Positions 1 to 64,000 of a stretch of DNA of 64,000 nt are shown here, piece after piece. A program made the translations under genes and the position numbers. The DNA comes from a virus. Taxonomy: Duplodnaviria; Caudoviricetes. Under the pieces are notes generated by a model. It saw only the letters and a program-made list of their open reading frames with translations, did not search any database and was not told the DNA's origin. Position 1 is the stretch's first letter. Each line of letters starts with the position of its first letter. The stretch covers positions 4,173 to 68,172 of the IMG/VR virus record IMGVR_UViG_3300042271_000115; one strand, 5' to 3'.

Positions 1-831
1 TATTAAGCCACATAGTGCGTAAAGCATATCTGGCTTTTCAGGAATAGTAATATCTGCAGGGCTTTTTACCAGCTCATCTAAGCTTGGTAACTTTGTATAT
101 ATATTTACAAAGGCTTCAAACTCAGCAGCAAATCCAGCTCCTACTGCTCCTTCTATAAGCTCACTTCTTACATCTTCTGGAGGATTACCATTAAGTATTC
201 TTCCAGCATGTGCTATTGTTCTTGGGCATGGGCTGTTAATAATATCAGAAGTAGGATTAAAGTCTAGCAGAAGTTGTGGTCTCCACTTGACGAAACTAAT
301 AAGTTGATGAGGCATATCATTTTCTATTGCCCAATCAATCCAGTCATCAAGAGAGGGAACAAGTTCCACTATCCATGCAAAGCGAGACTTTACAGGTTCA
401 AGTATTCCCGTTACACCAGCCTTATCTTCACGTCTATTTGTAGCAGCCATAAAGATAACCTTGTCTGATATCTTGAATCCATTAATTCTACGAGCCAGTA
501 TAAGCTGCATAGCTGCTGCCTGTACGCTCATTGGTGCTTGACCAAGATCATCAAGAAGGAATACTGTAAGCTTATCAGCATTGATAAGTTTATTTAATTC
601 ACCGAATGGTAGGAAGTGTGCTTCTTTGCCTTCCTTATCTGGGAATGGTAGCCCTTTATAGTCAGTAGGGTCTGACACCACTGGGTGACTTACAATAAGC
701 TCAGCATTTACTTCTCTGCATGCCTGAGCTACAATATCACTCTTGCCTACTCCAGGTGCTCCCTTAATTAATCCTGGAAGATTATTCTTGATAGCGAATT
801 TGATTGTGTTCTTTAGAATACTGGGGCGCAT
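1..831 (-). CDS. MoxR-like AAA+ ATPase (AAA_5 type), truncated by the window edge; not in the ORF track
   Basis: Manual translation from ATG at 831: MRPSILKNTIKFAIKNNLPGLIKGAPGVGKSDIV (Walker A), VFLLDDLGQA (Walker B), AATNRREDKAG (sensor I), VKSRF (Arg finger). Confidence 0.8.
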   Translation of the reverse strand, partial: MRPSILKNTIKFAIKNNLPGLIKGAPGVGKSDIVAQACREVNAELIVSHPVVSDPTDYKGLPFPDKEGKEAHFLPFGELNKLINADKLTVFLLDDLGQAPMSVQAAAMQLILARRINGFKISDKVIFMAATNRREDKAGVTGILEPVKSRFAWIVELVPSLDDWIDWAIENDMPHQLISFVKWRPQLLLDFNPTSDIINSPCPRTIAHAGRILNGNPPEDVRSELIEGAVGAGFAAEFEAFVNIYTKLPSLDELVKSPADITIPEKPDMLYALCGLI

Positions 832-1640
832 TATTTCTCCTTGTTTGTTAGTTTGTCTTCTACATATTGAACTCTTAATAAGCTTTCAATCTCTGCTGGT
901 ATATCATCTATATAGATAGCAGTAATATACTGATAGTGCGAATCTGTTCCACTACCGTATATTCTTATATCTGCAGGGAAAGGATTATCTTGCTTGGTAT
1001 ACATTATTGCAGCAAAGAAATCATCAAGATTTACCTTATTATATTTCTGTCCTATATCTATTTTAAGACTACCATTCTTATTTCTAAGAATAGAAAATCT
1101 ATATTCGCATATGCCATCTTTTAATTCTTTGTTGCTATATGTCCCTATAAGCGTTGAAATACCAAATGCGTTTAAGACACTAAGTGTTCTAGGATATCCC
1201 AATGACAGTATCTTACCCGTAAACAATACTTTGGGAATATACTTTTGTGTCTTGGTAACTATAGTGTTTCTTGTCCACGTATTATTGCTAAGCAGTGAGT
1301 TGTGATTCTTTATCTTTACCCATTTAAAATATGATGACTTGCTAAACACAGAAGATGATGGTTCTATAAGCCACCATGTAGTAAGATTACGAGACAATGT
1401 TAATTCTTTATCTATAATAAGCTTAATAACAATACAGTGTTTGTTGTAAGCATACTCTACTATGTCTGTGTTATCTTTTAATGCTTTAGTTATTGCTACA
1501 CCATAAGCGTTGTTTAGCTTGTATTTATTGCTTCGTGAAATAAAAGAATGAGATAATGGAAAGCTATACATGTCTTCATGTATAGACATTCGATGTTTTA
1601 GTTTTAATAGTAGCTTGTGTAGTTTCATTATCTTCTCCAT
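831..1640 (-). CDS. Hypothetical protein, 269 aa
   Basis: Long ORF in the operon; its stop overlaps the next start (TAATG). Confidence 0.6.
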   Translation of the reverse strand: MEKIMKLHKLLLKLKHRMSIHEDMYSFPLSHSFISRSNKYKLNNAYGVAITKALKDNTDIVEYAYNKHCIVIKLIIDKELTLSRNLTTWWLIEPSSSVFSKSSYFKWVKIKNHNSLLSNNTWTRNTIVTKTQKYIPKVLFTGKILSLGYPRTLSVLNAFGISTLIGTYSNKELKDGICEYRFSILRNKNGSLKIDIGQKYNKVNLDDFFAAIMYTKQDNPFPADIRIYGSGTDSHYQYITAIYIDDIPAEIESLLRVQYVEDKLTNKEK

Positions 1641-1646
1641 AAGTTT

Positions 1647-1670
1647 AGAGCCCCCAGAATAGGGGGCTCT
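1647..1670. terminator. GC-rich stem-loop (agagccccc-agaata-gggggctct)
   Basis: 9-bp perfect inverted repeat between two ORFs; T-run only on the + side; overlaps the likely RBS of the 1640 ORF. Confidence 0.35.
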
Positions 1671-1687
1671 CTTTTACTAAGTCAATG

Positions 1688-2239
1688 TTAGGAAATTCTA
1701 ACATTGTTTTCTTTCACGTACTTGACTCCAGCTACTTCTATCATGTCACTTTTATATAGTTCCTTAATCTTTATCTTGTCTGGGATCATGTTAATAGATT
1801 TAGGTTCTATAATGTCTTTAATCTTTTCATACTCATCATAAGAAAGCTTTAGCTCTACAGTTTTATAAGATGCTGGAATTTCTTCTTCATCATCAACTTG
1901 AATCTTTAATGGATTCTGAGTTAATGTTACTTTATATACTCCGTTTGTTAATGTCTTCTGACCCGAAGCAGTCATAACATCGATGATTCTATCTTTCCAC
2001 CATGCTGCTCTTTGTGTAAGCTGCTTAGCTTTCTTAGTAAGTCTATCAGCTTCTTCTTTGCATATCTTTGCATATCCTTCGAGTTCATCACGAATAGAAG
2101 CAAGGTCAAATACTTTTGCTATAGTAATAGCATTTACTTTTTCCATATATTCTTCTATTTCTTTAGTGATGACTCCACCAGATTCCTCAAGCATATCGTC
2201 AAGCTTACGATATTTTTCTTCATACTTCATTAAGTTCAT
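1688..2239 (-). CDS. Siphovirus Gp157-like protein
   Basis: Coiled-coil N-terminal half (KEEADRLTKKAKQL), then VTLTQNPLKIQVDDEEEIP...PDKIKIKELYK...VAGV; typical size and recombination-module context. Confidence 0.75.
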   Translation of the reverse strand: MNLMKYEEKYRKLDDMLEESGGVITKEIEEYMEKVNAITIAKVFDLASIRDELEGYAKICKEEADRLTKKAKQLTQRAAWWKDRIIDVMTASGQKTLTNGVYKVTLTQNPLKIQVDDEEEIPASYKTVELKLSYDEYEKIKDIIEPKSINMIPDKIKIKELYKSDMIEVAGVKYVKENNVRIS

Positions 2240-2248
2240 GTCTGTCTC

Positions 2249-2725
2249 CTAACAGCATCGTCTACCATACTCTGCTAAGAGTATAGCTTCTGCTATATTA
2301 TCATCTGATTTGATTGTTTTAATAAGCTCAGGGAAGAATTGTTTAGCTAGCTTAATAGAAGCAGACTTGCCTTTCTTCTCAAGATTAAAATACTTTTTCC
2401 ATTTTGTTCCGTCTACTTCTTCAAACGGAATTTCAAGACTAATCAAGATGCCTATAATAATACCATAGTTTGTCAATGATGTATGAACTCCCTTTTGTGG
2501 ATACCTGTATGGGATAAGAGTCTTACATCTTGGACATGGCTTCTTACCAATCATTTGTTTGGTAATTTGCTTTTCTATAATTACTTTAGCTCCAATATCT
2601 TTTATGCTAGCAAGAATATTAACAAGCTCTTCTCTATTTTCTTCTTGCGGCATCTTAAAGATAGTGGGCTCTTCTGTCATTATAGCTATGGCGCCCTTCT
2701 TTCCTGGGTCTATACCAACGAACAT
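2249..2725 (-). CDS. RuvC-like Holliday junction resolvase with an inserted CxxC
   Basis: FVGIDPGKKGAIA at the N-terminus, IIEKQ, KWKK, DNIAEAILLAEYG; CPRCK insertion. Confidence 0.8.
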   Translation of the reverse strand: MFVGIDPGKKGAIAIMTEEPTIFKMPQEENREELVNILASIKDIGAKVIIEKQITKQMIGKKPCPRCKTLIPYRYPQKGVHTSLTNYGIIIGILISLEIPFEEVDGTKWKKYFNLEKKGKSASIKLAKQFFPELIKTIKSDDNIAEAILLAEYGRRCC

Positions 2726-3282
2726 GATACCTCCATTGTCTTCAGCTCTTGTCTTAATAGCTGTGGACTATACCTAAAATACTTACCATTATCAGATAGA
2801 TAATAGTTTGCTTTTGCAATCTCTTCTATTTCATTTTTGAAGTATTTAGTAGTTCTTAAAGAGAATAGTTTTCTTTTTGATATAAGGAAGTCTTCATTCT
2901 TATCGTCGTGATTAACCATTATACGATGTTTCTTCCAGTTATCTTTAAGAGGGCGAGAGAGAGCTATAAGAACAGCATTGTAATATTTTAACTTTCTTAG
3001 TTCAATAATTTCTTGTGGTACACCCATGTTGTCATTAGGGCTTGAAGCAGAAGAATTTGTTCTCTTTGCTTGAGCCATTATTGCACTAAACTTGTTCTGA
3101 GCTTCAGCTATGAAAGAAGCTTCACGTTTTCTTGCTGCTCCTATATCTTTAGCGGCATCCAAAATAGTTTGAGTCGCTATAAGTATTCTATCAATATATA
3201 CTGAGATATCTTTATTCTTTTCTTCTGCTCTTAAAAGAGCATCCTGTGCTCCGCTTGTAAGTGTTATGTATGTGTTGTCCAT
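2710..3282 (-). CDS. Hypothetical protein, 190 aa
   Basis: ORF in the operon with an aggag RBS. Confidence 0.6.
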   Translation of the reverse strand: MDNTYITLTSGAQDALLRAEEKNKDISVYIDRILIATQTILDAAKDIGAARKREASFIAEAQNKFSAIMAQAKRTNSSASSPNDNMGVPQEIIELRKLKYYNAVLIALSRPLKDNWKKHRIMVNHDDKNEDFLISKRKLFSLRTTKYFKNEIEEIAKANYYLSDNGKYFRYSPQLLRQELKTMEVSCSLV

Positions 3283-3291
3283 TACAATCTC

Positions 3292-5130
3292 CTATTTGTA
3301 AATGATTTTGAATCTGCCACCTCGTGTCCTGAATAGCTCTAGCTTATCTTCTGGCACAGGGGCGTATGTATCAGCTAAGAATTCTACTATCTTTATAGAC
3401 TTATTTGATGATGGCTTGATAGATAGAACTTTCCTTGATTGATTTTCTATAGAACCTGATCCTTTTCCTGAGAAGAGTGTTATGTTTCCTTCTCTACTAT
3501 CATCTCTTCTTGTCTGTGATACAAGGAAAAAGATGACACCAGTTTGTTGAGCTATCTGTTGAACACCTACCATAAAATCTTTTATGCCTTGGTGCTCAGT
3601 CTTAGCTTCAGCAACAGCATGGTCTATAGTGTCAATGACTATAATCTCTGGCCTATCTTGAGACTCACATTGTTTCTTAATTGTATTGATTGTTGGTAGG
3701 CCATCAATAGGAACTACTTTGGAAAGTCTTTCTTTCCATTTATCATAAAGAGATGCTTGATATTCAAGTGATCTTGTTATATGATAGTCTGGAACATCTT
3801 CAAGCATTTGTAATGCAGTGAAGTAGAACAAGTCTGAAGGTTGTTCAGACGAGTAATAATAAGTCTTTCTTAGTTGTTCTATTGGCAGAAGAGTATTATT
3901 GTGCATATTAACACCATACAAAAGGTTCTTCATTAGAGTTGTTTTCCCTGCCTTTGTTACACCAAGAAGGGATATAATTTCTCCTCGTATAGCTGCGAAA
4001 TCATCTACACCAAACTGAGCGCCTATTTGTAAACCTTCCTTTCTCATCTTTACAAAGTTTATTTTCTTTGCTTGATTGATAATGAGATCAGGATCTGGAC
4101 TCTCTGCTGTAGCATGATTGCGCTCAGAGTAATGTATGCATCTGGTTGAGCAAAGCTCACCATTTACTCCACGCTTTTGCGCGTTATTGCACGAATAATC
4201 ATATCCTCTTCTATATGCTTGTTCCACAAGTTCTACAATGGCTTTTGTCTCAAGTGGAGTAGTATGGTCATCAATCTTATTATTCCACATTAAGAGAAAT
4301 TCTTTAGTCATCATAGATGGAACTCCTGCGGAAGCGAAATGAGCTGAAAGGATTAAGGTATCAATATGTCTTGAGCCCTCGATAGGGCCTCGTACGAGTC
4401 TATTATAGATACATGAAGCCCGTTTATAGGGCTCTATAACTTTTTCATACGAGGCTATCTTGGGCAATTCTGTAGGGACATAGCTAGCCAGTTCTCCATC
4501 TCCATAATGCTCAGGCCAGTTAAAGTTAAGTCTCTTGCTTTTTGCAAGTTCCTTAATTTCATCCGGCTTAAGGGTAAGAGCTTCATATCTTGTAATAGGT
4601 ATTTTATAGAGGCCGCTCTTTGCATTAATGGAATGAGGACATCTGATAAGTGCTTTTCTATGATAGATACTATGATCTATAGCATCTAGCATATCAAGTT
4701 CTCCCAATAGCTTTTCTTTTGTAAGCCTGACAACAAGCTCTAAGTCTTGATGGCTTTCTGGGAAACCAAAGCAATCTCCATGTATCATAATATGATATCC
4801 TCTGCCAGAGAAATATAACTTATAGTTTTCTTCTCTTAGCCCAAGTTCATCAAAATGATACAAGAACTTTTTAACTATGTTTAATACTCCTTCATCAGAA
4901 GTATCTCCCTTGTCTATGTCTATAGGAAACCATGGGAGATAAGCTTGTATCATCCAGTCCCTTACAGGTGTATCTGAAAGAATATCCTTATCTTGGTCTC
5001 TATATCCATAGATTGACATACCAATTTGCTCGTCACCATTAGCCAATACCCAGTCATATAATTCATCTTCATGAATAAGAATACCTCTTGGCTTGGAAAA
5101 TCCTTTCCCTTTGGCGACTTCGTAAAGCAT
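3292..5130 (-). CDS. Fused AEP primase(-polymerase) and SF4/RecA-like helicase
   Basis: AEP motifs FPIDIDKGD, FSGRGYHI, DHSIY...IRCPHSIN; PriCT-like GSRH; helicase motifs LLGVTKAGKTT, IIVIDTID, LVSQTRR, GSGSIENQSRKVL. Confidence 0.85.
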   Translation of the reverse strand: MLYEVAKGKGFSKPRGILIHEDELYDWVLANGDEQIGMSIYGYRDQDKDILSDTPVRDWMIQAYLPWFPIDIDKGDTSDEGVLNIVKKFLYHFDELGLREENYKLYFSGRGYHIMIHGDCFGFPESHQDLELVVRLTKEKLLGELDMLDAIDHSIYHRKALIRCPHSINAKSGLYKIPITRYEALTLKPDEIKELAKSKRLNFNWPEHYGDGELASYVPTELPKIASYEKVIEPYKRASCIYNRLVRGPIEGSRHIDTLILSAHFASAGVPSMMTKEFLLMWNNKIDDHTTPLETKAIVELVEQAYRRGYDYSCNNAQKRGVNGELCSTRCIHYSERNHATAESPDPDLIINQAKKINFVKMRKEGLQIGAQFGVDDFAAIRGEIISLLGVTKAGKTTLMKNLLYGVNMHNNTLLPIEQLRKTYYYSSEQPSDLFYFTALQMLEDVPDYHITRSLEYQASLYDKWKERLSKVVPIDGLPTINTIKKQCESQDRPEIIVIDTIDHAVAEAKTEHQGIKDFMVGVQQIAQQTGVIFFLVSQTRRDDSREGNITLFSGKGSGSIENQSRKVLSIKPSSNKSIKIVEFLADTYAPVPEDKLELFRTRGGRFKIIYK

Positions 5131-5131
5131 C

Positions 5132-5770
5132 TTAGATTGTCCGTTTTATAGGTTTAGTTTGTTCTGTTTGTTTATGTTGTTCCATCTCTTTGGCTTTATT
5201 TTCTAGATAGAGAAGCTGGTCTTGATATTCTTTTTCAGCATAAGCTATGCCTGCTTCTGTATTTGGATAGATGAATCTAGAACATCTAAAGAAATACTTA
5301 CTAGCATAATCTCCAGTACCTTTTGCTTTATACACATAGACCACTACACGAAATCCTTGCCTATTCATAATCTCCGTGTTAAGCCAGAATGGGATTTGGT
5401 CTTCTTGGATAATGTTACCTTGTTCATCTTCAAAGGCTCCCTTCGGATTATAACCAGCTTTCTTAAAGCCAAGCTCATTTAGTATTGTATTGTTGATATC
5501 TTTCAAGCCTCTAGAGTTTTTAATATCAACCATACCATCTTTATCATATACAATTTTAATGGGGATATAAATATCATGTTCTCTATCATGTTCTTCAGGT
5601 CTTACCTTAAAGATAATGACATAGTTATTGCTTGGATCCTTAATATATTTACTGTTAGGCAACATAGGATCAGAAGGTTCTCTGCAATCTACCGATAATA
5701 TTTCGGCTTTCAATACTCCAACAGGCTTGGGGGTGTATCCAGTTGTACTGTCAAATGTGATTCTTGGCAT
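5132..5770 (-). CDS. Putative ssDNA-binding protein (DUF669-like position and size)
   Basis: Lies between the AAA_24 ATPase and the primase-helicase; beta-rich N-terminus; mainly a contextual call. Confidence 0.35.
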   Translation of the reverse strand: MPRITFDSTTGYTPKPVGVLKAEILSVDCREPSDPMLPNSKYIKDPSNNYVIIFKVRPEEHDREHDIYIPIKIVYDKDGMVDIKNSRGLKDINNTILNELGFKKAGYNPKGAFEDEQGNIIQEDQIPFWLNTEIMNRQGFRVVVYVYKAKGTGDYASKYFFRCSRFIYPNTEAGIAYAEKEYQDQLLYLENKAKEMEQHKQTEQTKPIKRTI

Positions 5771-5779
5771 TGTATCTCC

Positions 5780-6178
5780 TTATGTTAGTTTTGTGAAGTT
5801 CTCAAAGAACTTTATCTCAGATGTTATCTTTTCAAGTTTAAGCTCTTGCTCATGCTTGGCAGAGTATAGCTTCTCAAGCATTGATTCTTTTGAAATTAGC
5901 ATACCCATTGATGCTGTTTTAGCTAATAGATATTTGTCTTTCGTATCTTCTGTAATTGGCACTGTGATGATTTTATCATCCTTGTAAATAGTAACAGCAA
6001 TGGCAGACAAATCTGATCCATTGTCAGCAAAGCCTGTAACTATACCTGGGCAGATAGACCAGTCAGAGTATCCTTTTGCGAATACTACAACTGGTGAACC
6101 AATATTAAGTTCAGACATATCCTTAATATCGTTATCATCAAAAGTTAATACAGAAGAATTTACTTTAATCTGTTGCAT
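5780..6178 (-). CDS. Hypothetical protein with an SH3/KOW-like N-terminal half and coiled-coil tail
   Basis: LNIGSPVVV...GIVTGF pattern; ORF in the operon. Confidence 0.5.
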   Translation of the reverse strand: MQQIKVNSSVLTFDDNDIKDMSELNIGSPVVVFAKGYSDWSICPGIVTGFADNGSDLSAIAVTIYKDDKIITVPITEDTKDKYLLAKTASMGMLISKESMLEKLYSAKHEQELKLEKITSEIKFFENFTKLT

Positions 6179-7064
6179 CTTTTCTCTCCTGATATTTTTG
6201 ACAGGCGTTCATAATAACATTGTATAATGTATTATTGCCTGCCCTGTCCCAGATGAACTTGCGACCGTGTAGTGGTTCAATACGGGTGCCCATAATTACC
6301 TCAGAGTAACCTCTGAAGTCAGCAATATGCTTGCCTGCCTGATCTACTTCGAGGGTTACTATAGCCTCAGCATTGTAGCCTAAGCGTGAAGCAAGTCCTT
6401 CTGGCATAGCAGGTACACGTTTAACTACTACGTCTCTTCCATCAGTAATAGAAATAGACTTTTTCAGGTGAGAGATTAGTATTAGTATGCCATTATCTTT
6501 GATAATGTCAAGTAGTGTATTAACTACACTCATAACTTTTTCTCTACCTCTAGTGTATGCTGCAGCGTATGGAATATCTTCAGGACTAACAGCATGAAGT
6601 ATCTGAAGGTTAGGTTGTTTCTTTGTTTTCTCTTCAGCTATAAGCTCATGCATTGCTGCTTCTACGCACCATAGATTTAGTTTATCTACTGTATCTATGA
6701 TGAGTGTAGTTTTGCCTGAGGTTGTCCACTCATGGTCTATTAGCTCTAGTGCTTCAGCCATAGATAATGAAGGAACAGGGTTACCACTACTGTCTTTAAG
6801 TCCTCTGTCGATTGGTAAGATAATATTATTATCTTTGTAAGGTGGGTTAAGGGAAGTTATTTGGATAGAGATAGCTTTATCTGTACGTACTCCTTGCTCA
6901 AGATCAAGGAATAGCACACCATCTTCTCCATTAGGAGAGAATGTAGAGAAAGCCGTAGTCTTTCCAGTTTTCTCAAATCCTACTGCCATCCAGTAGGTAC
7001 CTGGACTAAGCTTAGACCAGTCTGGTTTAGTGTTAGCCAGGTAGTCTTGTAATTGATACTTCAA
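6165..7064 (-). CDS. AAA_24 / Sak4-like recombination ATPase, canonical order
   Basis: AVGFEKTGKTT (Walker A) at the N-terminus, VLFLDLEQG, LIIDTVD (Walker B), LILISHLK. Confidence 0.75.
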   Translation of the reverse strand: MKYQLQDYLANTKPDWSKLSPGTYWMAVGFEKTGKTTAFSTFSPNGEDGVLFLDLEQGVRTDKAISIQITSLNPPYKDNNIILPIDRGLKDSSGNPVPSLSMAEALELIDHEWTTSGKTTLIIDTVDKLNLWCVEAAMHELIAEEKTKKQPNLQILHAVSPEDIPYAAAYTRGREKVMSVVNTLLDIIKDNGILILISHLKKSISITDGRDVVVKRVPAMPEGLASRLGYNAEAIVTLEVDQAGKHIADFRGYSEVIMGTRIEPLHGRKFIWDRAGNNTLYNVIMNACQKYQERKDATD

Positions 7065-7320: not shown

Positions 7321-8040
7321 TCAGCTATTGGTGCCTTGTTGACAATCAATGTCTGCCATAAGAAGCCTTAACATCTCTGGTGAGGCAAATGATTTAACTA
7401 TGTCTTCTGGATCGATGCGGTTGGCTGGTGAGGCGTTTATGAATTTCATCTCTTCACCAGTGAGTAACACTTTTACAGTAGTAAGCCCATTGTATATGCT
7501 CATGACCCTGCATACTAGGTCATGTTCATATAGTGCGAGAGGAGCTTTGATCCAGTCTCCTGCTTTAAGCTTAGGCTTACTGTAGAATGAGATACCAATT
7601 ATCCCTGATGAGACTTTAAGCCATTTGTCTGTTGACATCACAGTCACTTCTTTGGTTTTCTTACTGACACGGTAAACTTTTCCTTCGCGCATATGAGCGT
7701 ACTCGTAATCGCTGTTAGGCCAAGTTATCTTCTTACCGATAGACATTTGGTATAGCCACCATAGAGAAGATTCTGCTGGGACTTGTTTGCCAATCATTTC
7801 CAGTCTGTGGATACTGTCACCTTTATTGGAGTTACGATACATAGCGATTCTACTATTGATGATTTTATCAACAATGCGCTCTTCGTTAAGCTCCTGCTTG
7901 CTAACTAAATCTGCGTTTAGTAATCCCATGCGAGTTGGCCCTTGATAGTATCTTACCAACAGTGGAGTTTTGGTATTGATACCTATGTAAGTTGGTTCGA
8001 TATAATAGAACACTTCTCCGTTAATTTCCTTAAAGTTCAT
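7321..8040 (-). CDS. Early protein, 239 aa; paralog of 63449-63931; C-terminal KOW/SH3-like domain
   Basis: Near-identical N-terminus to the 63449 ORF; KLKAGDWIK...CRVMSIYNGLTTVKVL tail. Confidence 0.7.
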   Translation of the reverse strand: MNFKEINGEVFYYIEPTYIGINTKTPLLVRYYQGPTRMGLLNADLVSKQELNEERIVDKIINSRIAMYRNSNKGDSIHRLEMIGKQVPAESSLWWLYQMSIGKKITWPNSDYEYAHMREGKVYRVSKKTKEVTVMSTDKWLKVSSGIIGISFYSKPKLKAGDWIKAPLALYEHDLVCRVMSIYNGLTTVKVLLTGEEMKFINASPANRIDPEDIVKSFASPEMLRLLMADIDCQQGTNS

Positions 8041-8109
8041 TTGGTTCTCCTTGACAATCCACCATCTTTTCTATTGATTCAAATGGAACTTCAGCATAAC
8101 AGTTCTCAC
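7583..8109 (+). repeat. Long imperfect direct repeat, copy 1 (copy 2 at 63474-64000)
   Basis: Aligns by eye at a constant offset of 55,891 bp; identical over 7983-8109, with scattered substitutions and one diverged patch leftward. Confidence 0.95.
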
Positions 8110-8974: not shown

Positions 8975-9002
8975 AATTTATTCCAGTCATTTGTTTAAAA
9001 GC

Positions 9003-9024
9003 AGCGGGGCATTCCAGCCCCGCT
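9003..9024 (-). terminator. Intrinsic terminator-like hairpin
   Basis: agcggggc/gccccgct 8-bp stem followed by gcTTTT on the minus strand. Confidence 0.55.
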
Positions 9025-9040
9025 AAGAAGTGATTATAAA

Positions 9041-9776: not shown

Positions 9777-9818
9777 AATTATAACCTCTCCTTAAGTTAA
9801 TGGATCAGATGTAAAAAA

Positions 9819-9881
9819 TGAGCAAGTCTTACGCGGGATATGCGTCGGCGATGACATAAACAAAAGGCCGCTGCTTGCTCA
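9819..9881 (-). ncRNA. Candidate structured RNA (three-way junction) in the leader of the 9776 ORF
   Basis: Nested complementary pairs tgagcaag/cttgctca, acgc/gcgt and cggc/gccg; GC-rich island in an AT-rich intergenic gap; U-run after it on the minus strand. Confidence 0.3.
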
Positions 9882-9909
9882 ATCAGTTATTTCTCTATAA
9901 AAGTAAAAA

Positions 9910-9927
9910 AAGGGGACAAAGCCCCTT
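9910..9927 (-). terminator. Intrinsic terminator
   Basis: aagggg/cccctt stem directly after the 9926 stop, followed by a T-run on the minus strand. Confidence 0.6.
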
Positions 9928-10162: not shown

Positions 10163-10204
10163 GGTTTCTCCTTATATAGTTATTAATAATTTAGAATATA
10201 GATA

Positions 10205-10224
10205 GGGGAGTGATTAGACTCCCC
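10205..10224. terminator. Stem-loop ggggagt/actcccc
   Basis: 7-bp perfect stem just after the stop of the 10231-10383 ORF. Confidence 0.4.
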
Positions 10225-10230
10225 GTGTGA

Positions 10231-10383: not shown

Positions 10384-10851
10384 GATAAACTCCTTTAGGA
10401 TTTATTAGTTAAGATTAATTAATAACAATAATCTACATAGGGCCTTTAAGCATGCTTATTTAGCATGCCATTTGACCCAGTATATAGATATACACATAGG
10501 GTAAGTTATAGGGAGAGTCCCCCTCTTCAGATTTTTGATACCCCTCTTAAGGCTGTCTCTGTAGATTTTGATAGTGGTCTTAAGGCTGTTAGAATTGCTC
10601 AGAAGGGGTCTAATATCTCTTCTGTGAGCTTATCTATGTTGAGGTAGTATAGTTTATAGTGTTTGTAGAGAAAGTGTCTCTATGAGCTTCTTATGAGCTC
10701 TAGATAATATTAGGGCTTAGTATAGGGCTATGGGGGGGGGGCTATAGGGGGGGTATAGATATTAGTATAGTTACTAATATAGTTACTAGTATAGATTAAT
10801 ATATTACTAATAGATATACTAGTATAGATTAATATATTCTCTAGTATAATA

Positions 10852-10870
10852 GGCGATACGTAGTATCGCC
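10852..10870 (+). other. Perfect hairpin GGCGATAC-GTA-GTATCGCC (C-GTA-G triloop on the + strand)
   Basis: 8-bp stem and 3-nt loop read directly from the sequence. Confidence 0.9.
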
Positions 10871-10947
10871 GTATATATATATATATTAATATATAGAGAT
10901 TAGTATAAGAGTAATAGATAGATTAGTAGATAGATTATATATATAAC

Positions 10948-10966
10948 AGCCGTACTACGTACGGCT
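10948..10966 (-). other. Perfect hairpin AGCCGTAC-GTA-GTACGGCT (C-GTA-G triloop on the minus strand)
   Basis: The + strand reads agccgtac-tac-gtacggct; 8-bp stem, 3-nt loop. Confidence 0.9.
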
Positions 10967-11106
10967 TATATACTAAAGAATATATTAGAATATTAGTTAA
11001 TAATAGACTAATAGATATACTAGTAGACTACTAATAAAGTATTAATATAACTGTCTTAGACAGTATAGACACACTATGGTCTTAAGAGGATAGTATAAAA
11101 ATATGC

Positions 11107-11134
11107 TTGACAAGTTTATCTCTGTAATTATCTT
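11107..11134 (+). promoter_or_regulatory. Putative sigma70-type promoter for the morphogenesis operon
   Basis: TTGACA-16 nt-TATCTT, upstream of the GAGG RBS and the ATG at 11162. Confidence 0.55.
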
Positions 11135-11161
11135 GTAGATAGAAAGATTAGTGAGGTAGTT

Positions 11162-11887
11162 ATGAACCTTAGTAAAGATGAACTTATTAGCAAACGTAAT
11201 GCAATACAAGAAATTATTAATAGATCATATCGAAACGGCGGTGGCACGTATGCTGGAGCAGCCAAAATCTATGATGGAGACTTTAATGAACTAGTTAAAG
11301 AAAGAAACAAACTTGACTCACAAATAAAACTTGCTCACAGCCCTCAAGCATCTTTATCTCTAACTCCTACACAATCAACTGAAACGACTCCTTCTGAGAT
11401 AACACCTGTCCCCAATCAACCATCTGATGTACAAAGTAGAATTGATAAACTTAGCCCAGAAGATAAAGCTCTTTTTAATAAGTTCGCTGTTAACTACCTT
11501 GAAGATAAAGATGACATAGTGAATAGAATGACAAGAGCTGTCGTTAATCACTATCCACAAGTATTCCCTGATCTTTACCATGTATATTCAACACTATATA
11601 CAAATAACTCTACAGTCCCGAATATAGAGAATGCATCACAATTGCCAGTCTCTGAACAAGAATCACCTATAACTGCTCCACAAGCTGTGGCTAATCCAGC
11701 TCAAAGTAAAGACCCAATCAGTGCCCCCGCAGACACACTAAGCTCTCCAGCTAGTCTAGTTAAAGCTGTTGTAGCAAATAAAGCGAGTCAGCCCACTAAA
11801 CCCAAAGGCATACTTGGAACTATTAACGGCCGGTTCTCTGGCTCACCCAACACAAGGAATCCTTTGTTTGCACCTTGGGCAAGATAA
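11162..11887 (+). CDS. Hypothetical protein with long Pro/Ser/Gln/Ala-rich linkers
   Basis: First ORF after the promoter; RBS present. Confidence 0.6.
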   Translation: MNLSKDELISKRNAIQEIINRSYRNGGGTYAGAAKIYDGDFNELVKERNKLDSQIKLAHSPQASLSLTPTQSTETTPSEITPVPNQPSDVQSRIDKLSPEDKALFNKFAVNYLEDKDDIVNRMTRAVVNHYPQVFPDLYHVYSTLYTNNSTVPNIENASQLPVSEQESPITAPQAVANPAQSKDPISAPADTLSSPASLVKAVVANKASQPTKPKGILGTINGRFSGSPNTRNPLFAPWAR

Positions 11888-12237: not shown

Positions 12238-12981
12238 ATGATGATAGTAGAGATACTCTACAGAGGCATACCTCAACAGTGTGTTCTCTACGATATCTGG
12301 GATATACCAGAAGAACAGATTGCTCTGCCACACACAGTTCTGACAGAAGATGTAGGTAAATATGCACTATACACAGACGGTTCAAGGATGCTCGCAAAGA
12401 TTGTTCACAAACGAGGGATATACTTTAATACCCTTTGCGGACTCTTCCACAAGTACGACTATGTACACATTTGCAGACCCAAACCACGCATGTCAGCATA
12501 CTCAGGTCTGCTATTTCACCACGAACACGTCAAACTTAGAAGACCAAACCTTAAAGAAAGACAAACAACAGAAGCGTTCCTTGCAAAGAAACTCCCAAGT
12601 AATAAAAGACTCTCAAAGAGGTGTATCTTGCTAGTACTTCAACGACTCCAAGAACACATGAATAAGAAGCAAATCAATGAAGAATGGATTATTGATAAGC
12701 TTAAGAAAGAAGCAGAGAACTCTCGCAATAGAGGAGCAGATAGATTAACAGCTATTACAATGCTTGGGCGTATAGGTGGCATAGAAATGGGAGTTGCAAC
12801 AACCAATAAAAGCAAGTCTCCTGCACTATTTGCCCAGTTTAACAACTATACTATACAAGATAAACGTAGAAAGAACGCACAAGATACTATTGATTTACCC
12901 ACAAGAAAGGATCTTGAGTCTGCTATTGACGTTCTCCCAGAGATAGAAGACGCAGAAATCATCGAGTGCGAACCATTATGA
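12238..12981 (+). CDS. Probable terminase small subunit
   Basis: Directly upstream of and overlapping TerL; ADRLTAITMLGRIGG resembles the TerS oligomerisation helix. Confidence 0.55.
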   Translation: MMIVEILYRGIPQQCVLYDIWDIPEEQIALPHTVLTEDVGKYALYTDGSRMLAKIVHKRGIYFNTLCGLFHKYDYVHICRPKPRMSAYSGLLFHHEHVKLRRPNLKERQTTEAFLAKKLPSNKRLSKRCILLVLQRLQEHMNKKQINEEWIIDKLKKEAENSRNRGADRLTAITMLGRIGGIEMGVATTNKSKSPALFAQFNNYTIQDKRRKNAQDTIDLPTRKDLESAIDVLPEIEDAEIIECEPL

Positions 12982-14492
12982 TTGATATAACAGATATAGA
13001 TCAGGCTCAAAGACTATATCAAGCTCTGTCAAAGGACTCTGCTCTCTTTGCTAAAGAGATTATGGGACATATTGTTACTCGTATCCCTGATTTCCATAGA
13101 GAAGCCTATGAAGCAATAGACAAAAACTACCAATATCTTGCCTTCGTATGGGGCAGAGGTCTAGCAAAATCAACTATATCTCACACTATACAAGTAACTA
13201 AAGACATTTGCCACGCCTCAGAGCCCTATACTATCCTTATCTCTGAGACTATAGATCAGGCTTCTGCTGACTTAATCTCTGTACAAGATGAAATAATCAA
13301 TAACGAGCTTATACATCAGCTCTATGGAGACCTAAAGGGAGAGATTTGGAACGTTCAAAGTATGGAACTTGCCAACGGCTGCTATGTAAAGTGCCTCGGC
13401 TATGGCTCTAGGGTACGTGGAGCTAAGTGGAAGAACTCAAGACCCACCAAGATTATCCTTGATGACTTTGAATCAGAGCAAAATTCCGCTACCCCAGACC
13501 AAAGAGAAGAGGTGCAGCGCTGGATTAACGCAAGAGTTATGCCGGCAACAGAGGTTAGTTCATCTAAATATCAGTTCTGGGGAACGATAGTGCACCCAGA
13601 CGCCTTTCTTGCAAGAGCGAAGAACCTGTCTTTCTTTAAACATCCCTATGGACACTACCAGGAAGTACCAATAGAGCGTAATGGCAAGCCAGTATGGCCA
13701 GAAAGATACCCAATGTCATGGATAGAGTTCACCAGAAAGAGATATGAAGAGACAAGACAGCTCTCTTTGTTCCTTCAAGAGTACTATAACATACCCTCTT
13801 TAACTGGTAAACCAAGATTTAATCCAGATATGATTACCGAAATCGATGGAGTCTTCCAAAGAGAGGGCATAACTACGTGGATAAAGCACGCAAACGGAAC
13901 TAAAACCCCAGTATACGTCTTTATCGGAGTTGATCCCGCCTCTTCTCTTGCAGAAACTGCAGATAATACTATTATGACAGTTATTGGAGTCCTCCCAAGC
14001 CTCGGAGCAAAGAAATATATCATTCTTGATATGTTTGCAGACAAGCTAACTCCAACTGGACAGCGTGATAAGCTGTTTGAGCTAGTATATACCTATAGTC
14101 CCAAGATGGCCACCATAGAAACACAGGGATATCAAGGGGCACTAGAGGATATGTGCAGAGAAAAGATGCGTGAGAAAGGATTATACTTTGCAATTAATAG
14201 CTTTAAGTCTAATAAATCTAAGTCAAACAAGTGGTTGCTTGGTCTTGAGCCAGTAATTAATTCTGGTGATATATCAAGACTGTCTGGTCTTAAGCATTGG
14301 CAACTTCTACAGAATGAATTAGTATGCTATAATGAGAACGCGAGAGCTCATGATGACACTATAGACGGATTATTCCTCGCGCTTCAAGGATCGTATGCTC
14401 CACAAAATTATGACGTTGACGAAATGATAACTAAGCTCAGACATAGAGCAGATACTAAAACTAAACGTAAAAGAACATGGTTTACAACCTGA
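12966..14492 (+). CDS. terL: Terminase large subunit
   Basis: WGRGLAKST (Walker A), IILDDFE (Walker B), FIGVDPA and HDDTIDGL (RNase H-like nuclease). Confidence 0.95.
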   Translation: MRTIMIDITDIDQAQRLYQALSKDSALFAKEIMGHIVTRIPDFHREAYEAIDKNYQYLAFVWGRGLAKSTISHTIQVTKDICHASEPYTILISETIDQASADLISVQDEIINNELIHQLYGDLKGEIWNVQSMELANGCYVKCLGYGSRVRGAKWKNSRPTKIILDDFESEQNSATPDQREEVQRWINARVMPATEVSSSKYQFWGTIVHPDAFLARAKNLSFFKHPYGHYQEVPIERNGKPVWPERYPMSWIEFTRKRYEETRQLSLFLQEYYNIPSLTGKPRFNPDMITEIDGVFQREGITTWIKHANGTKTPVYVFIGVDPASSLAETADNTIMTVIGVLPSLGAKKYIILDMFADKLTPTGQRDKLFELVYTYSPKMATIETQGYQGALEDMCREKMREKGLYFAINSFKSNKSKSNKWLLGLEPVINSGDISRLSGLKHWQLLQNELVCYNENARAHDDTIDGLFLALQGSYAPQNYDVDEMITKLRHRADTKTKRKRTWFTT

Positions 14493-18196: not shown

Positions 18197-18792
18197 TAAC
18201 GCCAACCTATAAACAGCTATATAGTATCGCCAAATCTAAAGCCTACGCATGGTTTACTGCACCTTATGACCTTAACTTCATAGGTATTCGTAGCAACACA
18301 AAGCATGACGATACATTTAACGACACTATAGCCGTTGCATATAAAGACGCTGATGGCAACGAGAGAGTGTTCTGTGCGCCTTTTACCTGTGATCCAGGCA
18401 CATACTACTTGCGTAATCCTCTTAATGCCAGTGGCACCGCTATCCTGCCAGAGGATCAGTATAGGAGCCTATGGATATTGGGTAAGCACAAAGGTTATGT
18501 TGCGCTTGTACAGCGCAAAGCCATTCGTGTTCTTAGAGACAATGATAAGAATGATCTTCTTGGCGGCACGCTCTCAGCTTATCCTGAGCTTGGTGGGTTT
18601 AACTTCCATAGAGCATTAGAGAATAGCATTGTCAAAACTATAGGCAAGTTCTCTGCTGGTTGCCAAGTTGTACAAGTGCCAGAGGACTTCAGCTATATCA
18701 TCAGCCTTGTTAGGCTACAAGTGAAATACGTAAAGTCAGCAATAGTCTCTTACACTCTTATTAATGAAAGGAATATACAATGGGACAGTTAA
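18184..18792 (+). CDS. Putative endolysin, L,D-transpeptidase (YkuD)-like fold
   Basis: NFIGIR...TCDPG...GTAIL...HKGYVALVQ...GFNFHRA...FSAGCQV (His...SxGC catalytic pattern). Confidence 0.6.
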   Translation: MDSMITPTYKQLYSIAKSKAYAWFTAPYDLNFIGIRSNTKHDDTFNDTIAVAYKDADGNERVFCAPFTCDPGTYYLRNPLNASGTAILPEDQYRSLWILGKHKGYVALVQRKAIRVLRDNDKNDLLGGTLSAYPELGGFNFHRALENSIVKTIGKFSAGCQVVQVPEDFSYIISLVRLQVKYVKSAIVSYTLINERNIQWDS

Positions 18793-20825
18793 TACAGCTT
18801 AGCCCTGAGGAATCAGGGAAGCTATGGTATAAGCTCTCTACTTATGAGAACAATATGTATGCCGCATGGAGAGCAGAGTGCCTCGATAACAGAGCCTTTT
18901 ATTTTGGGCATCAAGCAACAAGTGAAGAGATTACACAAATACAGGAGCGTGGTCAGCACTATATAGTAATTAACAAGATAAGAAAAGCCATAAGAGGCAT
19001 GTCTGGTATGCTTGCCTCTAATGTTCCTAAGTATAAACTAGTAGCTATGGGGGATGATGATAATCTTAAAGCCGCTCTAGGCAACAAGCTTCTTGATTGG
19101 GGATGGCATAACAGTGGCGGAGTAACAACTTTTAGACGCACAATTAAAGATGCACAGATAGATAACATTAAGTATCATCATGTTATATACTCTAAGGATA
19201 AAAAGGTTAAATCAGTATTGTTATCTTTTGATGATGTCCTTGTTGACCCATCCTCCAAGCATCCTATGTTTGAAGATGCAGAGATGATATGTATTCGCAG
19301 GTATGTTCCTATCGAGTACGTAAAAAGTGTATATGGTGTTGCAGACGTAGTGTATGAAGTTCCTGGCTCGTATTATGACTATGCTTCGCATGATACTGGG
19401 ACAGCCGAAGCAGCAAATGCTTTTATCCAGAAAGTATACAGTTATGACAAGATGTATGTAAACCTGTATGAGTGCTATAGAAAAGAGTTTTATCGCACTG
19501 AGGATACTGGTGAAGTAAAGTCTAAGATAATAAAAGATACAGTTATTGGCTTTAGACATTCCTTTAGAGAGGAATTGCCAAGTCCTATTTCTGAGTATCC
19601 TATTATACCTGTATATGTAGAAGACACAGAAAATCCATACAAGCGTGGAGAGATACATTTTCTTAAAGACCTTCAAAAGTTTATTAACAAGAGCTATGGT
19701 GTTGTATTGCTTAATGCTCAGTTAATGTCTAACCCCAAAGTATTCCTTAGAGAAACAGATATACCAAGTGCAGACATAGAAGAATTTGAAGATAACTATG
19801 CTAATCCAGGGTCTGTATCCGTATTAACTGGTAATGCAGAGCCTCCAATTATAGTGCAGGGTCAACCATTAAACAGTGCGTTCTTTACACTATATCAAGA
19901 CGCTAAGCTTGAAATGGAAGCGGCAACAGTATCAGCTATGCAGCTTGGGACAGTTATGCCTTCAGGCATGAACACCAGTCAATTACTTGATCAGAGAGAG
20001 ATGATTCTTGATTCACTTAAAGATTTTACGTCTGTTATAGACCTTGCCTGCTCTCAGCTCGGCAAGGTAATGCTACAGTACTGCTCTGCCTATCTCTCTA
20101 CAGAAGACTTGTTGAGACTGTTGGATACCTCAGGTGCACAAGCTCGGATACGGGGATATCTCGATCAGGGACTTAACGTTGATGATGAAGAAAGTGTTTC
20201 TCGGTATATAAGAACTGCAGAAGAAAACAATATACCTGTTGATGCGATAGAGCAGAATCTTGCTCAAGCACGTCTTGATACTGATTTCATGAAAGCCTTA
20301 GAGTATTATACCGATATGCCAGACTTCTCTGATATGGATGTAGTTGTTATTCCTGGCAGCTATACCCCAACATATGAAATGGCTATGATGAGATTAATGA
20401 TGGAACTTGCTCAGACTGGAGCTGTTGATCCATCGGTAATACTTAGGTATGTTCCATCAGAAAACAGGCAAGAACTCATAGAGCGTTTTGATTCTTTGCG
20501 TAGGCTCCAAGGACAGATTGAGTATCTTGAGGAAGAGAACAAAGAACTTAAGAAAGCCATTGAATCTCTTGAAGGTGAAGTCGTTACTCAAAGAGTTAAC
20601 GTTGCTACTATAAAAGAAACAAGTAAACTTGAAAAGCTTAAGGCAGAAGAAAAGGTAAAAGCCTTAATGCGTAAGTATGAACATAGGTTGCAAACAAGAG
20701 AACAGCAACAGAAGTTCAAAGAAGAACTTACTGAAATGTTGTTGAATATTCAGATAGAAAAACTTAAAGAGAAAGAACAAGAGCTTGACAGTAAACAAAG
20801 CTCCAATAATATTGAAATCCTATAA
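18780..20825 (+). CDS. Portal protein (P22/podovirus-like, with a long C-terminal coiled coil)
   Basis: AFYFGHQ...INKIRKAIRGMSG at the N-terminus, YPIIP, RGEIHFLKDLQKFINK; size; position before scaffold and MCP. Confidence 0.85.
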   Translation: MGQLIQLSPEESGKLWYKLSTYENNMYAAWRAECLDNRAFYFGHQATSEEITQIQERGQHYIVINKIRKAIRGMSGMLASNVPKYKLVAMGDDDNLKAALGNKLLDWGWHNSGGVTTFRRTIKDAQIDNIKYHHVIYSKDKKVKSVLLSFDDVLVDPSSKHPMFEDAEMICIRRYVPIEYVKSVYGVADVVYEVPGSYYDYASHDTGTAEAANAFIQKVYSYDKMYVNLYECYRKEFYRTEDTGEVKSKIIKDTVIGFRHSFREELPSPISEYPIIPVYVEDTENPYKRGEIHFLKDLQKFINKSYGVVLLNAQLMSNPKVFLRETDIPSADIEEFEDNYANPGSVSVLTGNAEPPIIVQGQPLNSAFFTLYQDAKLEMEAATVSAMQLGTVMPSGMNTSQLLDQREMILDSLKDFTSVIDLACSQLGKVMLQYCSAYLSTEDLLRLLDTSGAQARIRGYLDQGLNVDDEESVSRYIRTAEENNIPVDAIEQNLAQARLDTDFMKALEYYTDMPDFSDMDVVVIPGSYTPTYEMAMMRLMMELAQTGAVDPSVILRYVPSENRQELIERFDSLRRLQGQIEYLEEENKELKKAIESLEGEVVTQRVNVATIKETSKLEKLKAEEKVKALMRKYEHRLQTREQQQKFKEELTEMLLNIQIEKLKEKEQELDSKQSSNNIEIL

Positions 20826-52784: not shown

Positions 52785-53053
52785 GGTTTATCCTCCTCAT
52801 GCTTTTCTGTAATGGCGTTTAGATATCGTCTAAGGATATGCACAATATGTAACGTTAGGTAATAAGATTGCGCTTGCTCTGCATAATGTAATTCAGCTTG
52901 TTTGGCAAGGTATTGTTCATGTTGCATTCGCTGAAACCAATAATCTTTCTCAGCCTGCTCTTCCTCTCTTCTGCGTTCTTGCCACCTTCTTTTAGCTAAA
53001 TACTCTTCATATTTTTCCCGCTCGCGCTCTTCTTCTCTCTTGTAATCAATCAC
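52778..53053 (-). CDS. Charged (Arg/Glu-rich) hypothetical protein
   Basis: ORF in the operon. Confidence 0.5.
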   Translation of the reverse strand: MIDYKREEEREREKYEEYLAKRRWQERRREEEQAEKDYWFQRMQHEQYLAKQAELHYAEQAQSYYLTLHIVHILRRYLNAITEKHEEDKPC

Positions 53054-54190: not shown

Positions 54191-54266
54191 GATTTTCCTC
54201 CAATCCGTTATTCTTAAAATATTCCCTTTTTCTTACTTTGTTTTTCATGGTTATCTCCTTTTGGTT

Positions 54267-54590
54267 TTAGCTGAATCTTCCCATTGTGGCGAAGTCTTTA
54301 TCTGATTCAAGTGTTTTGTCGTAATCAGGCTTGGGCGGCTCAGGAAAGTCTGGTTCAATGGTCTTTAACCACTCATCATACCCATTGTCTATAGGCATGG
54401 TTGTTTGCAAATTTGGCTCTGGAACAAAACAAGACGTCGCCCCGACTGTGCGTACTTGATTATTGTAAGTCTCTGTTTCATAAATCCAGCCACCAGGAAC
54501 ACGAATCACAACCCTGTAGCAATTTGCCGCACTGTGATTGAACACATACTCTTCATGTACTTCCATCTCCAACAATTCTTTGATTGTCAT
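54267..54590 (-). CDS. Hypothetical protein
   Basis: AAGGAG RBS; VIRVPGGWIY motif. Confidence 0.55.
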   Translation of the reverse strand: MTIKELLEMEVHEEYVFNHSAANCYRVVIRVPGGWIYETETYNNQVRTVGATSCFVPEPNLQTTMPIDNGYDEWLKTIEPDFPEPPKPDYDKTLESDKDFATMGRFS

Positions 54591-54616
54591 ATCTTTCTCC
54601 TTCTATTTGTTGATAG

Positions 54617-63931: not shown

Positions 63932-64000
63932 TTGGTTCTCCTTGACAATCCACCATCTTTTCTATTGATTCAAATGGAACTTCAGCATAACAGTTCTCAC
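63474..64000 (+). repeat. Long imperfect direct repeat, copy 2 (copy 1 at 7583-8109); runs off the window
   Basis: 63874-64000 is identical to 7983-8109 and includes the 3' end of a second copy of the CPHC zinc-ribbon gene. Confidence 0.95.

What the first reader, a model, noticed from the sequence alone, without database searches (positions are those of the whole stretch)
10852..10966. Two oppositely oriented C(GTA)G triloop hairpins at the strand switch: candidate hairpin promoters for the virion RNAP
Seen: two GC-containing perfect 8-bp stems in otherwise almost pure A/T/G DNA. Their stem sequences differ but both have a 3-nt loop reading C-GTA-G, one on the + strand (10852-10870) and one on the - strand (10948-10966). 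Established: C(GNA)G triloops are exceptionally stable DNA mini-hairpins, and N4 vRNAP (a T7-like enzyme) recognises such a template-strand hairpin as its promoter. Inference: by N4 geometry, hairpin 1 would drive leftward early transcription and hairpin 2 rightward transcription. To my knowledge this would be new promoter logic for a two-barrel vRNAP. Conserved loop with varied stem points to selection on structure. An origin or packaging role is an alternative.
Basis: partly seen in the sequence, partly recalled or inferred. Interest (0 to 1): 0.8.

Follow-up and report, generated by a model that had tools for sequence, protein, structure and literature searches.

The report
Mirror DNA mini-hairpins, origin-like phage region
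Two small, very stable DNA hairpins face each other across the most easily melted DNA of an uncultured phage; they are real and conserved, most likely part of its replication origin, and could instead be start signals for its injected RNA polymerase.

Summary
Observation confirmed. Perfect 8-bp stems with 3-nt loops lie at 10852-10870 (loop GTA on +) and 10948-10966 (loop GTA on -). Simulated sequence gives 0.01 such C(GNA)G hairpins per 64 kb; two are seen.

They are mirror copies inside a ~158-bp imperfect palindrome. Their stems differ at three positions, all compensated. They flank the least stable duplex of the whole 68-kb record and sit among iteron-like repeats: 8 of the record's 10 + strand TAGTATA copies lie here. 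This is its largest non-coding gap, the single point where its two gene arms diverge.

Six closely related contigs keep the hairpins letter for letter while the spacer varies (47, 77, 123 nt). The only distant relative (TerL 68%, RNA polymerase 27% identical) has none.

- **Best reading (0.4):** the core of a replication origin, built like RSF1010 oriV, where ssiA and ssiB lie on opposite strands.
hairpin promoters for the virion RNA polymerase. This is neither shown nor excluded. Hairpin 1 faces the presumed early arm. Hairpin 2 faces late genes that have their own conserved host-type promoter. phi14:2's early arm has no such hairpin.

No transcript or read-end data could be obtained. The scan has noted similar mini-hairpin sets in other phages.

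The parts
10852..10870 (+). Hairpin 1: perfect 8-bp stem, loop GTA on the + strand, C:G closing pair
   Evidence: identical in L004 and L013
10948..10966 (-). Hairpin 2: perfect 8-bp stem, loop GTA on the - strand, C:G closing pair; mirror copy of hairpin 1 with three compensated stem differences
   Evidence: the 30-nt block around it is invariant in 7 of 7 sequences
10871..10947 (.). AT-rich spacer with a TA run and about 23-nt repeats; one C in 77 nt. It holds the least stable 40-nt (10873-10912) and 60-nt (10872-10931) duplex windows of the whole record. Its length varies among relatives (47, 77, 123 nt). Candidate unwinding element.
10830..10851 (.). Outer flank of hairpin 1, left arm of the larger imperfect palindrome
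   Evidence: (I2, 85% complementary)
10967..10987 (.). Outer flank of hairpin 2, right arm of the larger imperfect palindrome; 24 nt beginning four bases after the stem are deleted in L010
10645..10848 (+). Iteron-like direct repeats. The TAGTATA core starts at 10645, 10718, 10763, 10787, 10820 and 10842, with further copies at 10901 and 11091. Inverted copies start at 10815, 10969 and 11016.
   Evidence: 8 of the 10 + strand copies in the record lie in 10640-11100; families D1-D5, D10
10725..10755 (+). G-run motif. Its core is shared with the distant relative L007, where the hairpins are not.
11107..11134 (+). Sigma70-type promoter (TTGACA, 16 nt, TATCTT) before the first rightward gene at 11162, which has a GAGG ribosome-binding site
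   Evidence: conserved in all close relatives; the -35 block is shared with L007
10568..10595 (+). Second sigma70-type promoter-like site (10 of 12 matches plus TG), pointing rightward into the C-poor region
   Evidence: kept in L004 and L013
10447..10460 (.). 14-nt palindromic block about 64 nt upstream of the first leftward gene (start at 10383), shared with L007

Best explanation
The two hairpins are the core of the phage's replication origin. The record's only large non-coding gap (10384-11161) holds an array of iteron-like repeats, and the record's most easily melted DNA lies between the hairpins.

Inferred mechanism:
1. A protein that binds the iterons, or transcription entering from the flanking promoters, opens the AT-rich spacer.
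2. The GC-containing mini-hairpins then fold on the single strands. The stable C(GNA)G version is on the + strand at the left edge and on the - strand at the right edge.
3. Each of those strands is the leading-strand template for a fork moving outward.
4. Each hairpin therefore marks where a primase starts DNA synthesis away from the centre. The phage's own primase-helicase is a candidate.

This is how ssiA and ssiB work in RSF1010 oriV. Shown here: the hairpins, the symmetry, the iterons, the stability minimum and the conservation. Inferred: opening, hairpin folding in the cell, and priming.
For: - The hairpins are real, strand-specific and far beyond chance.
- They are mirror copies about a dyad near 10909. 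All three stem differences between them are compensated, so self-complementarity is maintained.
- The least stable 40- and 60-nt duplex windows of the 68-kb record lie between them. The next two least stable windows lie just outside each hairpin.
- 8 of the 10 + strand copies of the iteron core fall within 461 bp here.
- The site is the single divergence point of the two gene arms and lies within the broad minimum of cumulative GC skew (about 9-14 kb).
- The hairpins are invariant in 3 of 3 (hairpin 1) and 7 of 7 (hairpin 2) related contigs, while the spacer changes length and the flanks carry substitutions and deletions.
- Precedent: RSF1010 oriV has two 40-nt inverted repeats, one on each strand. 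Each has a hairpin, and ssiA holds a C-GAA-G mini-hairpin. They are read by an archaeo-eukaryotic-type primase after RepC and RepA open the DNA (PMC8567376; PMC13037366; PMC6925257).
- The phage encodes a primase fused to an AAA_25 helicase domain, with faint PriS-type matches. It also encodes a DnaB-type helicase and an SSB-like protein.
Against: - No experiment and no read-depth or read-end data were available.
- The GC-skew minimum is confounded with the switch in transcription direction.
- No iteron-binding initiator was identified.
- The only distant relative has different repeats and no hairpins, so this design is not shown to be old or general.
- There is no sequence similarity to ssiA or ssiB.
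- The primase-type assignment rests on sub-threshold matches.
- The contig joins two strain variants with different replication modules, so which primase goes with this region is uncertain.
- Every structural feature listed also fits a hairpin promoter.
Confidence: 0.4

Rival explanations
1. Hairpin promoters for the injected two-barrel RNA polymerase. Supercoiling extrudes the hairpins. The polymerase binds the C(GNA)G hairpin on the template strand and starts a few bases beyond the stem. Hairpin 1 would then drive the leftward early/replication arm and hairpin 2 a rightward transcript.
For: - The loop and closing pair match what N4 needs for hairpin extrusion and stability.
- Both hairpins point outward.
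- Hairpin 1 heads the arm that is early and virion-polymerase-dependent in phi14:2.
- The scan found no sigma70-type site on the leftward strand.
- phi14:2 gp66 transcribes denatured DNA, and its promoters are still unknown.
- The record's giant ORF at 36748-45576 carries DFDGD.
- The surrounding DNA is the record's easiest to melt.
Against: - There are only two copies in the record.
- Hairpin 2 aims at late packaging and structural genes that have a conserved host-type promoter 140 nt downstream.
- Hairpin 1 lies 470 nt from the first leftward gene.
- The scanned part of phi14:2's early arm has no C(GNA)G hairpin of 5 bp or more, and its early 5' ends share no motif.
- The P23-45 virion polymerase uses a linear AT-rich motif.
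- The N4 enzyme is an unrelated single-subunit polymerase. Its specific contacts, a purine at the loop centre and G at -8, are not matched here.
- There are no hairpins in the distant relative, though its polymerase is only 27% identical.
Confidence: 0.2
2. Double-stranded palindromic binding sites for a dimeric phage protein. This could be a regulator of the two diverging arms or a terminase small subunit marking the packaging start just upstream of the packaging genes. No hairpin would form.
For: - The 19-bp perfect palindromes are invariant at the sequence level in all close relatives, with no covariation.
- The two sites share the pattern GC, two free bases, TAC, three bases, GTA, two free bases, GC.
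- They lie about 1.3 kb upstream of the putative small-terminase gene, with TerL following it.
- Several related contigs break in this region.
Against: - The three positions that differ between the two sites stay perfectly symmetric within each site, which base pairing requires and a protein dimer does not.
- The C(GNA)G loop and closing pair have roughly a 3% chance of arising in a palindrome with a 3-nt centre (my estimate).
- No DNA-binding family was detected in the neighbouring small proteins.
- The contig breaks fall at different bases next to a spacer whose length varies between strains, which is what assembly breaks look like.
- Three assemblies read straight through the region.
Confidence: 0.2
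3. RNA-level hairpins. A transcript from the promoter-like site at 10568-10595, and a mirror transcript from the right, would end or be processed at the hairpins. This would give C-poor non-coding RNAs, or shield the central spacer from transcription.
For: - There is a strong promoter-like site with TG about 255 nt upstream of hairpin 1, kept in close relatives.
- Hairpin 2 on the minus strand passes the loose terminator scan.
- phi14:2 makes abundant early non-coding RNAs from long intergenic regions.
Against: - Neither hairpin is followed by a T run, whereas the real terminators of this genome have clear ones.
- There is no Rfam match.
- A GUA triloop has no special stability in RNA (my own knowledge), whereas C(GNA)G does in DNA.
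Confidence: 0.1

Closest known systems
ssiA / ssiB single-strand initiation signals in oriV of the IncQ plasmid RSF1010 (RepB' primase, RepA helicase, RepC initiator)
   Same: - Two inverted copies, one on each strand, each with a base-paired hairpin that contains a C(GNA)G mini-hairpin.
- They lie next to iterons and AT-rich DNA.
- Synthesis is directed outward in both directions.
- The element has its own primase and a RepA-like (AAA_25) helicase (for RSF1010; here).
   Different: - No sequence similarity.
- The host is a roughly 56-kb phage, not a small plasmid.
- The easily melted spacer lies between the two signals.
- The hairpins are shorter: 19 nt inside mirror modules of about 45 nt.
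- No RepC-like initiator was found.
- Priming is untested.
Early promoters P1-P3 of coliphage N4 (virion RNA polymerase hairpin promoters)
   Same: A small DNA hairpin with a 3-nt loop, 5'G and 3'A in the loop and a C:G closing pair. It is strand-specific and lies in DNA that should extrude hairpins easily. The phage carries a giant, presumably injected RNA polymerase.
   Different: - The N4 enzyme is a T7-like single-subunit polymerase; this phage has a two-barrel DFDGD protein.
- N4 has three promoters in one direction near a genome end; here there are two, back to back.
- The N4 loop centre is a purine and -8 is G; here they are T and A.
- The stem is 8 bp against 5-7 bp in N4.
- No start sites are known here.
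Primase-recognition hairpins of the complementary-strand origins of phages G4, St-1 and alpha3
   Same: Very stable GNA-type mini-hairpins that stay folded on ssDNA and are thought to guide a primase.
   Different: Those are single-stranded DNA phages with one-strand origins read by host DnaG. Here there is a mirrored pair in a double-stranded genome.

Membership tests
N4-type virion RNA polymerase hairpin promoter | Template-strand hairpin with a 3-nt loop, 5'G and 3'A in the loop, and a C:G loop-closing pair | tested here: met
   against the requirements in PMC4496689. The stem is 8 bp, against 5-7 bp in N4.
N4-type virion RNA polymerase hairpin promoter | Specific bases contacted by the enzyme: a purine at the loop centre (-11) and G at -8, within a GC-rich heptamer | tested here: not met
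   The loop centre is T, and the base next to the closing pair is A.
   The candidate virion polymerase is a 2,942-residue protein with a cellular-type DFDGD motif and no Pfam, PHROG or PDB sequence match. Other ORFs were not searched exhaustively for a T7-like enzyme.
N4-type virion RNA polymerase hairpin promoter | Transcription start about 11 nt from the loop centre; rifampicin-resistant early RNA | not testable with these tools
RSF1010-type ssi pair within an origin | Two inverted copies on complementary strands, each with a base-paired hairpin | tested here: met
   definition.
RSF1010-type ssi pair within an origin | Neighbouring iterons and an AT-rich, easily opened segment | tested here: met
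   Iteron core enrichment and the record-wide duplex-stability minimum. That any protein binds the iterons is not shown.
RSF1010-type ssi pair within an origin | Cognate archaeo-eukaryotic-type primase, RepA-type helicase and iteron-binding initiator | tested here: inconclusive
   Primase by PHROG, an AAA_25 helicase domain, and only sub-threshold PriS matches. There is no PDB match and no initiator was identified.
RSF1010-type ssi pair within an origin | Primer synthesis that depends on the hairpin | not testable with these tools
   Needs biochemistry.
Intrinsic (rho-independent) terminator | GC-rich hairpin directly followed by a T run | tested here: not met
   The tails alternate T and A. 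Genuine terminators with T runs are seen after the small leftward genes. Only hairpin 2 on the minus strand passes the loose scan.

The most novel reading that the evidence does not exclude
At least hairpin 1 is a structure-specific promoter for the injected two-barrel RNA polymerase. An unrelated polymerase family would then have arrived at the same ssDNA-hairpin promoter logic as N4. That would explain why motif searches found nothing upstream of the early genes of crAss-like phages. A combined version is also open: short transcripts started at both hairpins could prime bidirectional replication.
Probability: 0.18. Interest if true: 0.85.

Novelty: new variant of a known kind. Interest (0 to 1): 0.5.

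Why it matters
Neither the replication origins nor the virion-polymerase promoters of crAss-like and related uncultured phages have been identified.

This locus is a compact, clearly bounded candidate of about 160 bp: two hairpins and a spacer. It can be synthesised and tested in vitro against two proteins encoded in the same record, the primase-helicase and the polymerase part of the giant virion protein.

- If the primase reads the hairpins, the RSF1010 way of starting replication extends to a large double-stranded DNA phage.
- If the polymerase reads them, this would be the first promoter type defined for this polymerase lineage, and a case of convergence with N4.

Tried and rejected
**Searches that added nothing**
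- blastn of the region against 50,697 phage records gave no match.
- TerL tblastn found no cultured relative above about 25% identity.
- A TerL-profile scan of IMG/VR gave the same three relatives plus one at 22%. A scan of GTDB genomes found nothing.
- A degenerate hairpin pattern scanned over IMG/VR found only the same lineage and three chance hits in unrelated DNA.
- There was no Rfam family and no tRNA.
- Pfam found nothing in the neighbouring small proteins.

The 36 homologues of the neighbouring protein could therefore not be used to fetch more intergenic regions.

**Readings considered and rejected**
- *Genome ends or inverted terminal repeats in the spacer.* Rejected because three assemblies read through it, and contig breaks fall at different bases beside a spacer of variable length.
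- *An invertible segment.* The arms are too dissimilar and no invertase was seen.
- *A rolling-circle nick site.* The loops are only 3 nt.
- *IS200/IS605-type ends.* Those hairpins lie on one strand.
- *A special role for the TACGTA hexamer inside both hairpins.* It occurs 8 times against 9.9 expected.
- *The foreign GC-rich DNA joined about 75 nt left of hairpin 2 in L011.* Set aside as a probable chimera, since coverage is 2.7x.
- *The outer stem of the 168-nt fold.* It shows no compensatory change among relatives (z -5.4), so only the two small hairpins are counted as structure.

Full report
**Setting**

The window is bases 4173-68172 of a 68,172-bp linear IMG/VR virus record. Genes run leftward up to 10383, rightward from 11162 to about 49.5 kb, then leftward again.

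- The rightward arm starts with an unknown 241-residue protein. It goes on through the large terminase (12966-14492), the portal (18780-20825) and a 2,942-residue ORF carrying DFDGD at residue 2188.
- The leftward genes include a primase-helicase, Sak4-like proteins, a DnaB-type helicase, an exonuclease, an SSB-like protein and a RuvC-like resolvase.
- Bases 7572-8109 recur at 63463-64000 (89% identical), and two further left-end pieces recur near 53-54.6 kb. The contig is therefore longer than one genome unit (about 56 kb) and joins two strain variants.
- On the unit genome there are just two arms. They diverge at one place, the 778-bp gap 10384-11161, which is the largest non-coding stretch of the record.

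**The observation**

Both hairpins are exactly as described: perfect 8-bp stems, 3-nt loops and C:G closing pairs. The loop reads GTA on the + strand for hairpin 1 and on the - strand for hairpin 2.

- Only four perfect triloop hairpins of 8 bp or more occur in the window.
- Markov simulations give 0.01 C(GNA)G hairpins of that size per 64 kb, and none of 200 simulations had two.
- As ssDNA each folds at about -8 kcal/mol, and they are the most stable local folds of the gap.

Bases 10830-10987 align with their own reverse complement (75% over 163 nt), with the dyad near 10909. The two stems differ at three of eight positions. In each hairpin the partner base differs too, so there are three compensated differences and no uncompensated one. 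Something keeps each copy perfectly self-complementary.

**Surroundings**

- The 77-nt spacer between the hairpins has one C and a TA run.
- By nearest-neighbour energies, the spacer holds the least stable 40- and 60-nt duplex windows of the entire record. The next two least stable windows lie just left of hairpin 1 and just right of hairpin 2.
- A 7-nt repeat core occurs 10 times on the + strand of the record, and 8 of those copies lie in 10640-11100. Inverted copies lie beside both hairpins, and longer direct repeats recur at 33-nt spacing.
- Left of these repeats is a G-run motif (10725-10755).
- A sigma70-type promoter (11107-11134) precedes the first rightward gene.
- A second promoter-like site (10568-10595) points rightward into the C-poor region.
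- The scan found no such site on the leftward strand.
- The minimum of cumulative GC skew is broad (about 9-14 kb) and includes this gap. It coincides with the change in transcription direction, so it is weak evidence.

**Relatives**

- *Close relatives.* Searches with the neighbouring protein and with TerL found only six contigs that reach this region. They are close relatives, 90-97% identical in flanking genes.
- *Conservation.* Both hairpins are identical in L004 and L013. Hairpin 2 with its immediate flanks is invariant in 7 of 7 sequences. The spacer, by contrast, measures 47, 77 or 123 nt, and the flanks carry substitutions and a 24-nt deletion. The hairpins are therefore conserved islands, but there is no covariation across relatives.
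- *Contig breaks.* Several contigs break beside the variable spacer, at different bases, which looks like assembly fragmentation.
- *The distant relative.* The one distant relative is record G001, locus L007, with TerL 68% identical. It has a 1.15-kb control region with its own repeats and shares three blocks with the window: the G-run core, a 14-nt palindrome near the first leftward gene, and the -35 block of the rightward promoter. It has no comparable hairpin there or anywhere in its 57.8 kb.
- *What the absence means.* G001's giant polymerase protein is only 27% identical, so the absence decides nothing.

**What the literature allows**

- N4 promoters are template-strand hairpins. They need the 5'G and 3'A of the loop and the C:G closing pair to extrude, and have specific contacts at -11 (a purine), -10, -8 and +1. 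There are three copies near one genome end.
- In phi14:2 the whole replicative arm is early and is transcribed by the virion polymerase gp66. gp66 is active on denatured DNA, and the early 5' ends share no motif.
- I scanned bases 1-100,000 of the 100,418-bp phi14:2 record. There is a single C(GNA)G triloop hairpin of 5 bp or more, at 97464-97478, and it is not in the early arm.
- The P23-45 virion polymerase uses a linear AT-rich motif at 14 start sites.
- RSF1010 oriV starts replication at two 40-nt inverted repeats, ssiA and ssiB, one per strand. Each has a hairpin, and ssiA holds a C-GAA-G mini-hairpin. The archaeo-eukaryotic-type primase RepB' reads them after RepC and the RepA helicase open the DNA.

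**Weighing**

Every structural feature fits both an origin core with ssi-like signals and N4-like promoters. Both are ways of starting a polymer on a strand-specific DNA hairpin, and both predict outward synthesis from this arrangement.

The following points favour the origin:
- the iteron array;
- the record-wide stability minimum lying exactly between the hairpins;
- a single mirrored pair at the one divergence point;
- a phage primase fused to a RepA-like helicase domain;
- hairpin 2 pointing into late genes that have their own conserved host-type promoter.

The following keep the promoter reading alive for hairpin 1:
- it heads the presumed early arm;
- no host-type promoter was found on that strand;
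- the polymerase's promoters are unknown.

Double-stranded protein binding sites, including a packaging signal, and RNA-level roles remain possible but fit the compensated stems and the DNA-type loop less well.

My odds are: origin core 0.4, virion-polymerase promoters 0.2, protein-binding palindromes 0.2, RNA-level hairpins 0.1, and the remainder no function or something else.

**Limits**

More distant intergenic sequences, read depth, read ends and transcripts could therefore not be examined.
- Earlier notes of this scan describe similar mini-hairpin sets in other phages, several also compared with RSF1010. They are unchecked and were not used as evidence.

Noticed in passing
window 7572-8109 and 63463-64000; also record bases left of the window against 52939-53237 and 54245-54602: The contig repeats itself at 81-96% identity about 55.9 kb apart. 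It is therefore longer than one genome unit and joins two strain variants carrying different replication modules. CheckV's 74% completeness is probably an underestimate.
   Followed up: partly
window 10725-10755; L007 3735-3760: The core of a G-run motif is shared with the distant relative, which lacks the hairpins. It contains the bases ACTATAGGG in L004, L013 and L007, identical to the initiation part of a T7 promoter as I recall it. This is probably coincidence, but the motif is a candidate conserved cis-element.
   Followed up: partly
window 10447-10460; L007 2957-2970: A 14-nt palindromic block upstream of the first leftward gene is shared by both lineages. It may be an operator or part of the leftward promoter.
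   Followed up: no
window 11162-11887: Most homologues of this 241-residue protein are longer and end in a glucosaminidase domain (PF01832). The window's copy has a different C-terminus. The gene is mosaic among near-identical phages.
   Followed up: partly
G001 (record of L007) 108-7046 and 56152-57747, minus strand: The giant polymerase homologue is split across the two ends of the record, so that record is probably a complete, circularly permuted genome of about 57.8 kb.
   Followed up: no
L011 1-600: GC-rich foreign DNA is joined about 75 nt left of hairpin 2. It carries three 8-nt repeats and three inverted copies around an AT-rich stretch, another origin-like layout. The contig has 2.7x coverage, so the join is probably a chimera.
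   Followed up: partly
window 9777-9925, 8975-9040, 10163-10230 (minus strand): The first, second and fourth small leftward genes are each followed by a terminator-like hairpin, two of them with a clear T run. The start of the leftward arm is therefore cut into short units that need read-through or their own promoters.
   Followed up: no
phi14:2 NC_021806 97464-97478 and 98029-98045: Two GTA-loop hairpins lie in and near the strand-switch gap of phi14:2: a 6-bp stem closed by C:G and a 7-bp stem closed by A:T. Both have GTA on the + strand. Their significance was not tested.
   Followed up: partly
window 11052-11064: A 13-nt palindrome between hairpin 2 and the rightward promoter is invariant in seven sequences and duplicated in L010 and L011. 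It may be an operator.
   Followed up: no
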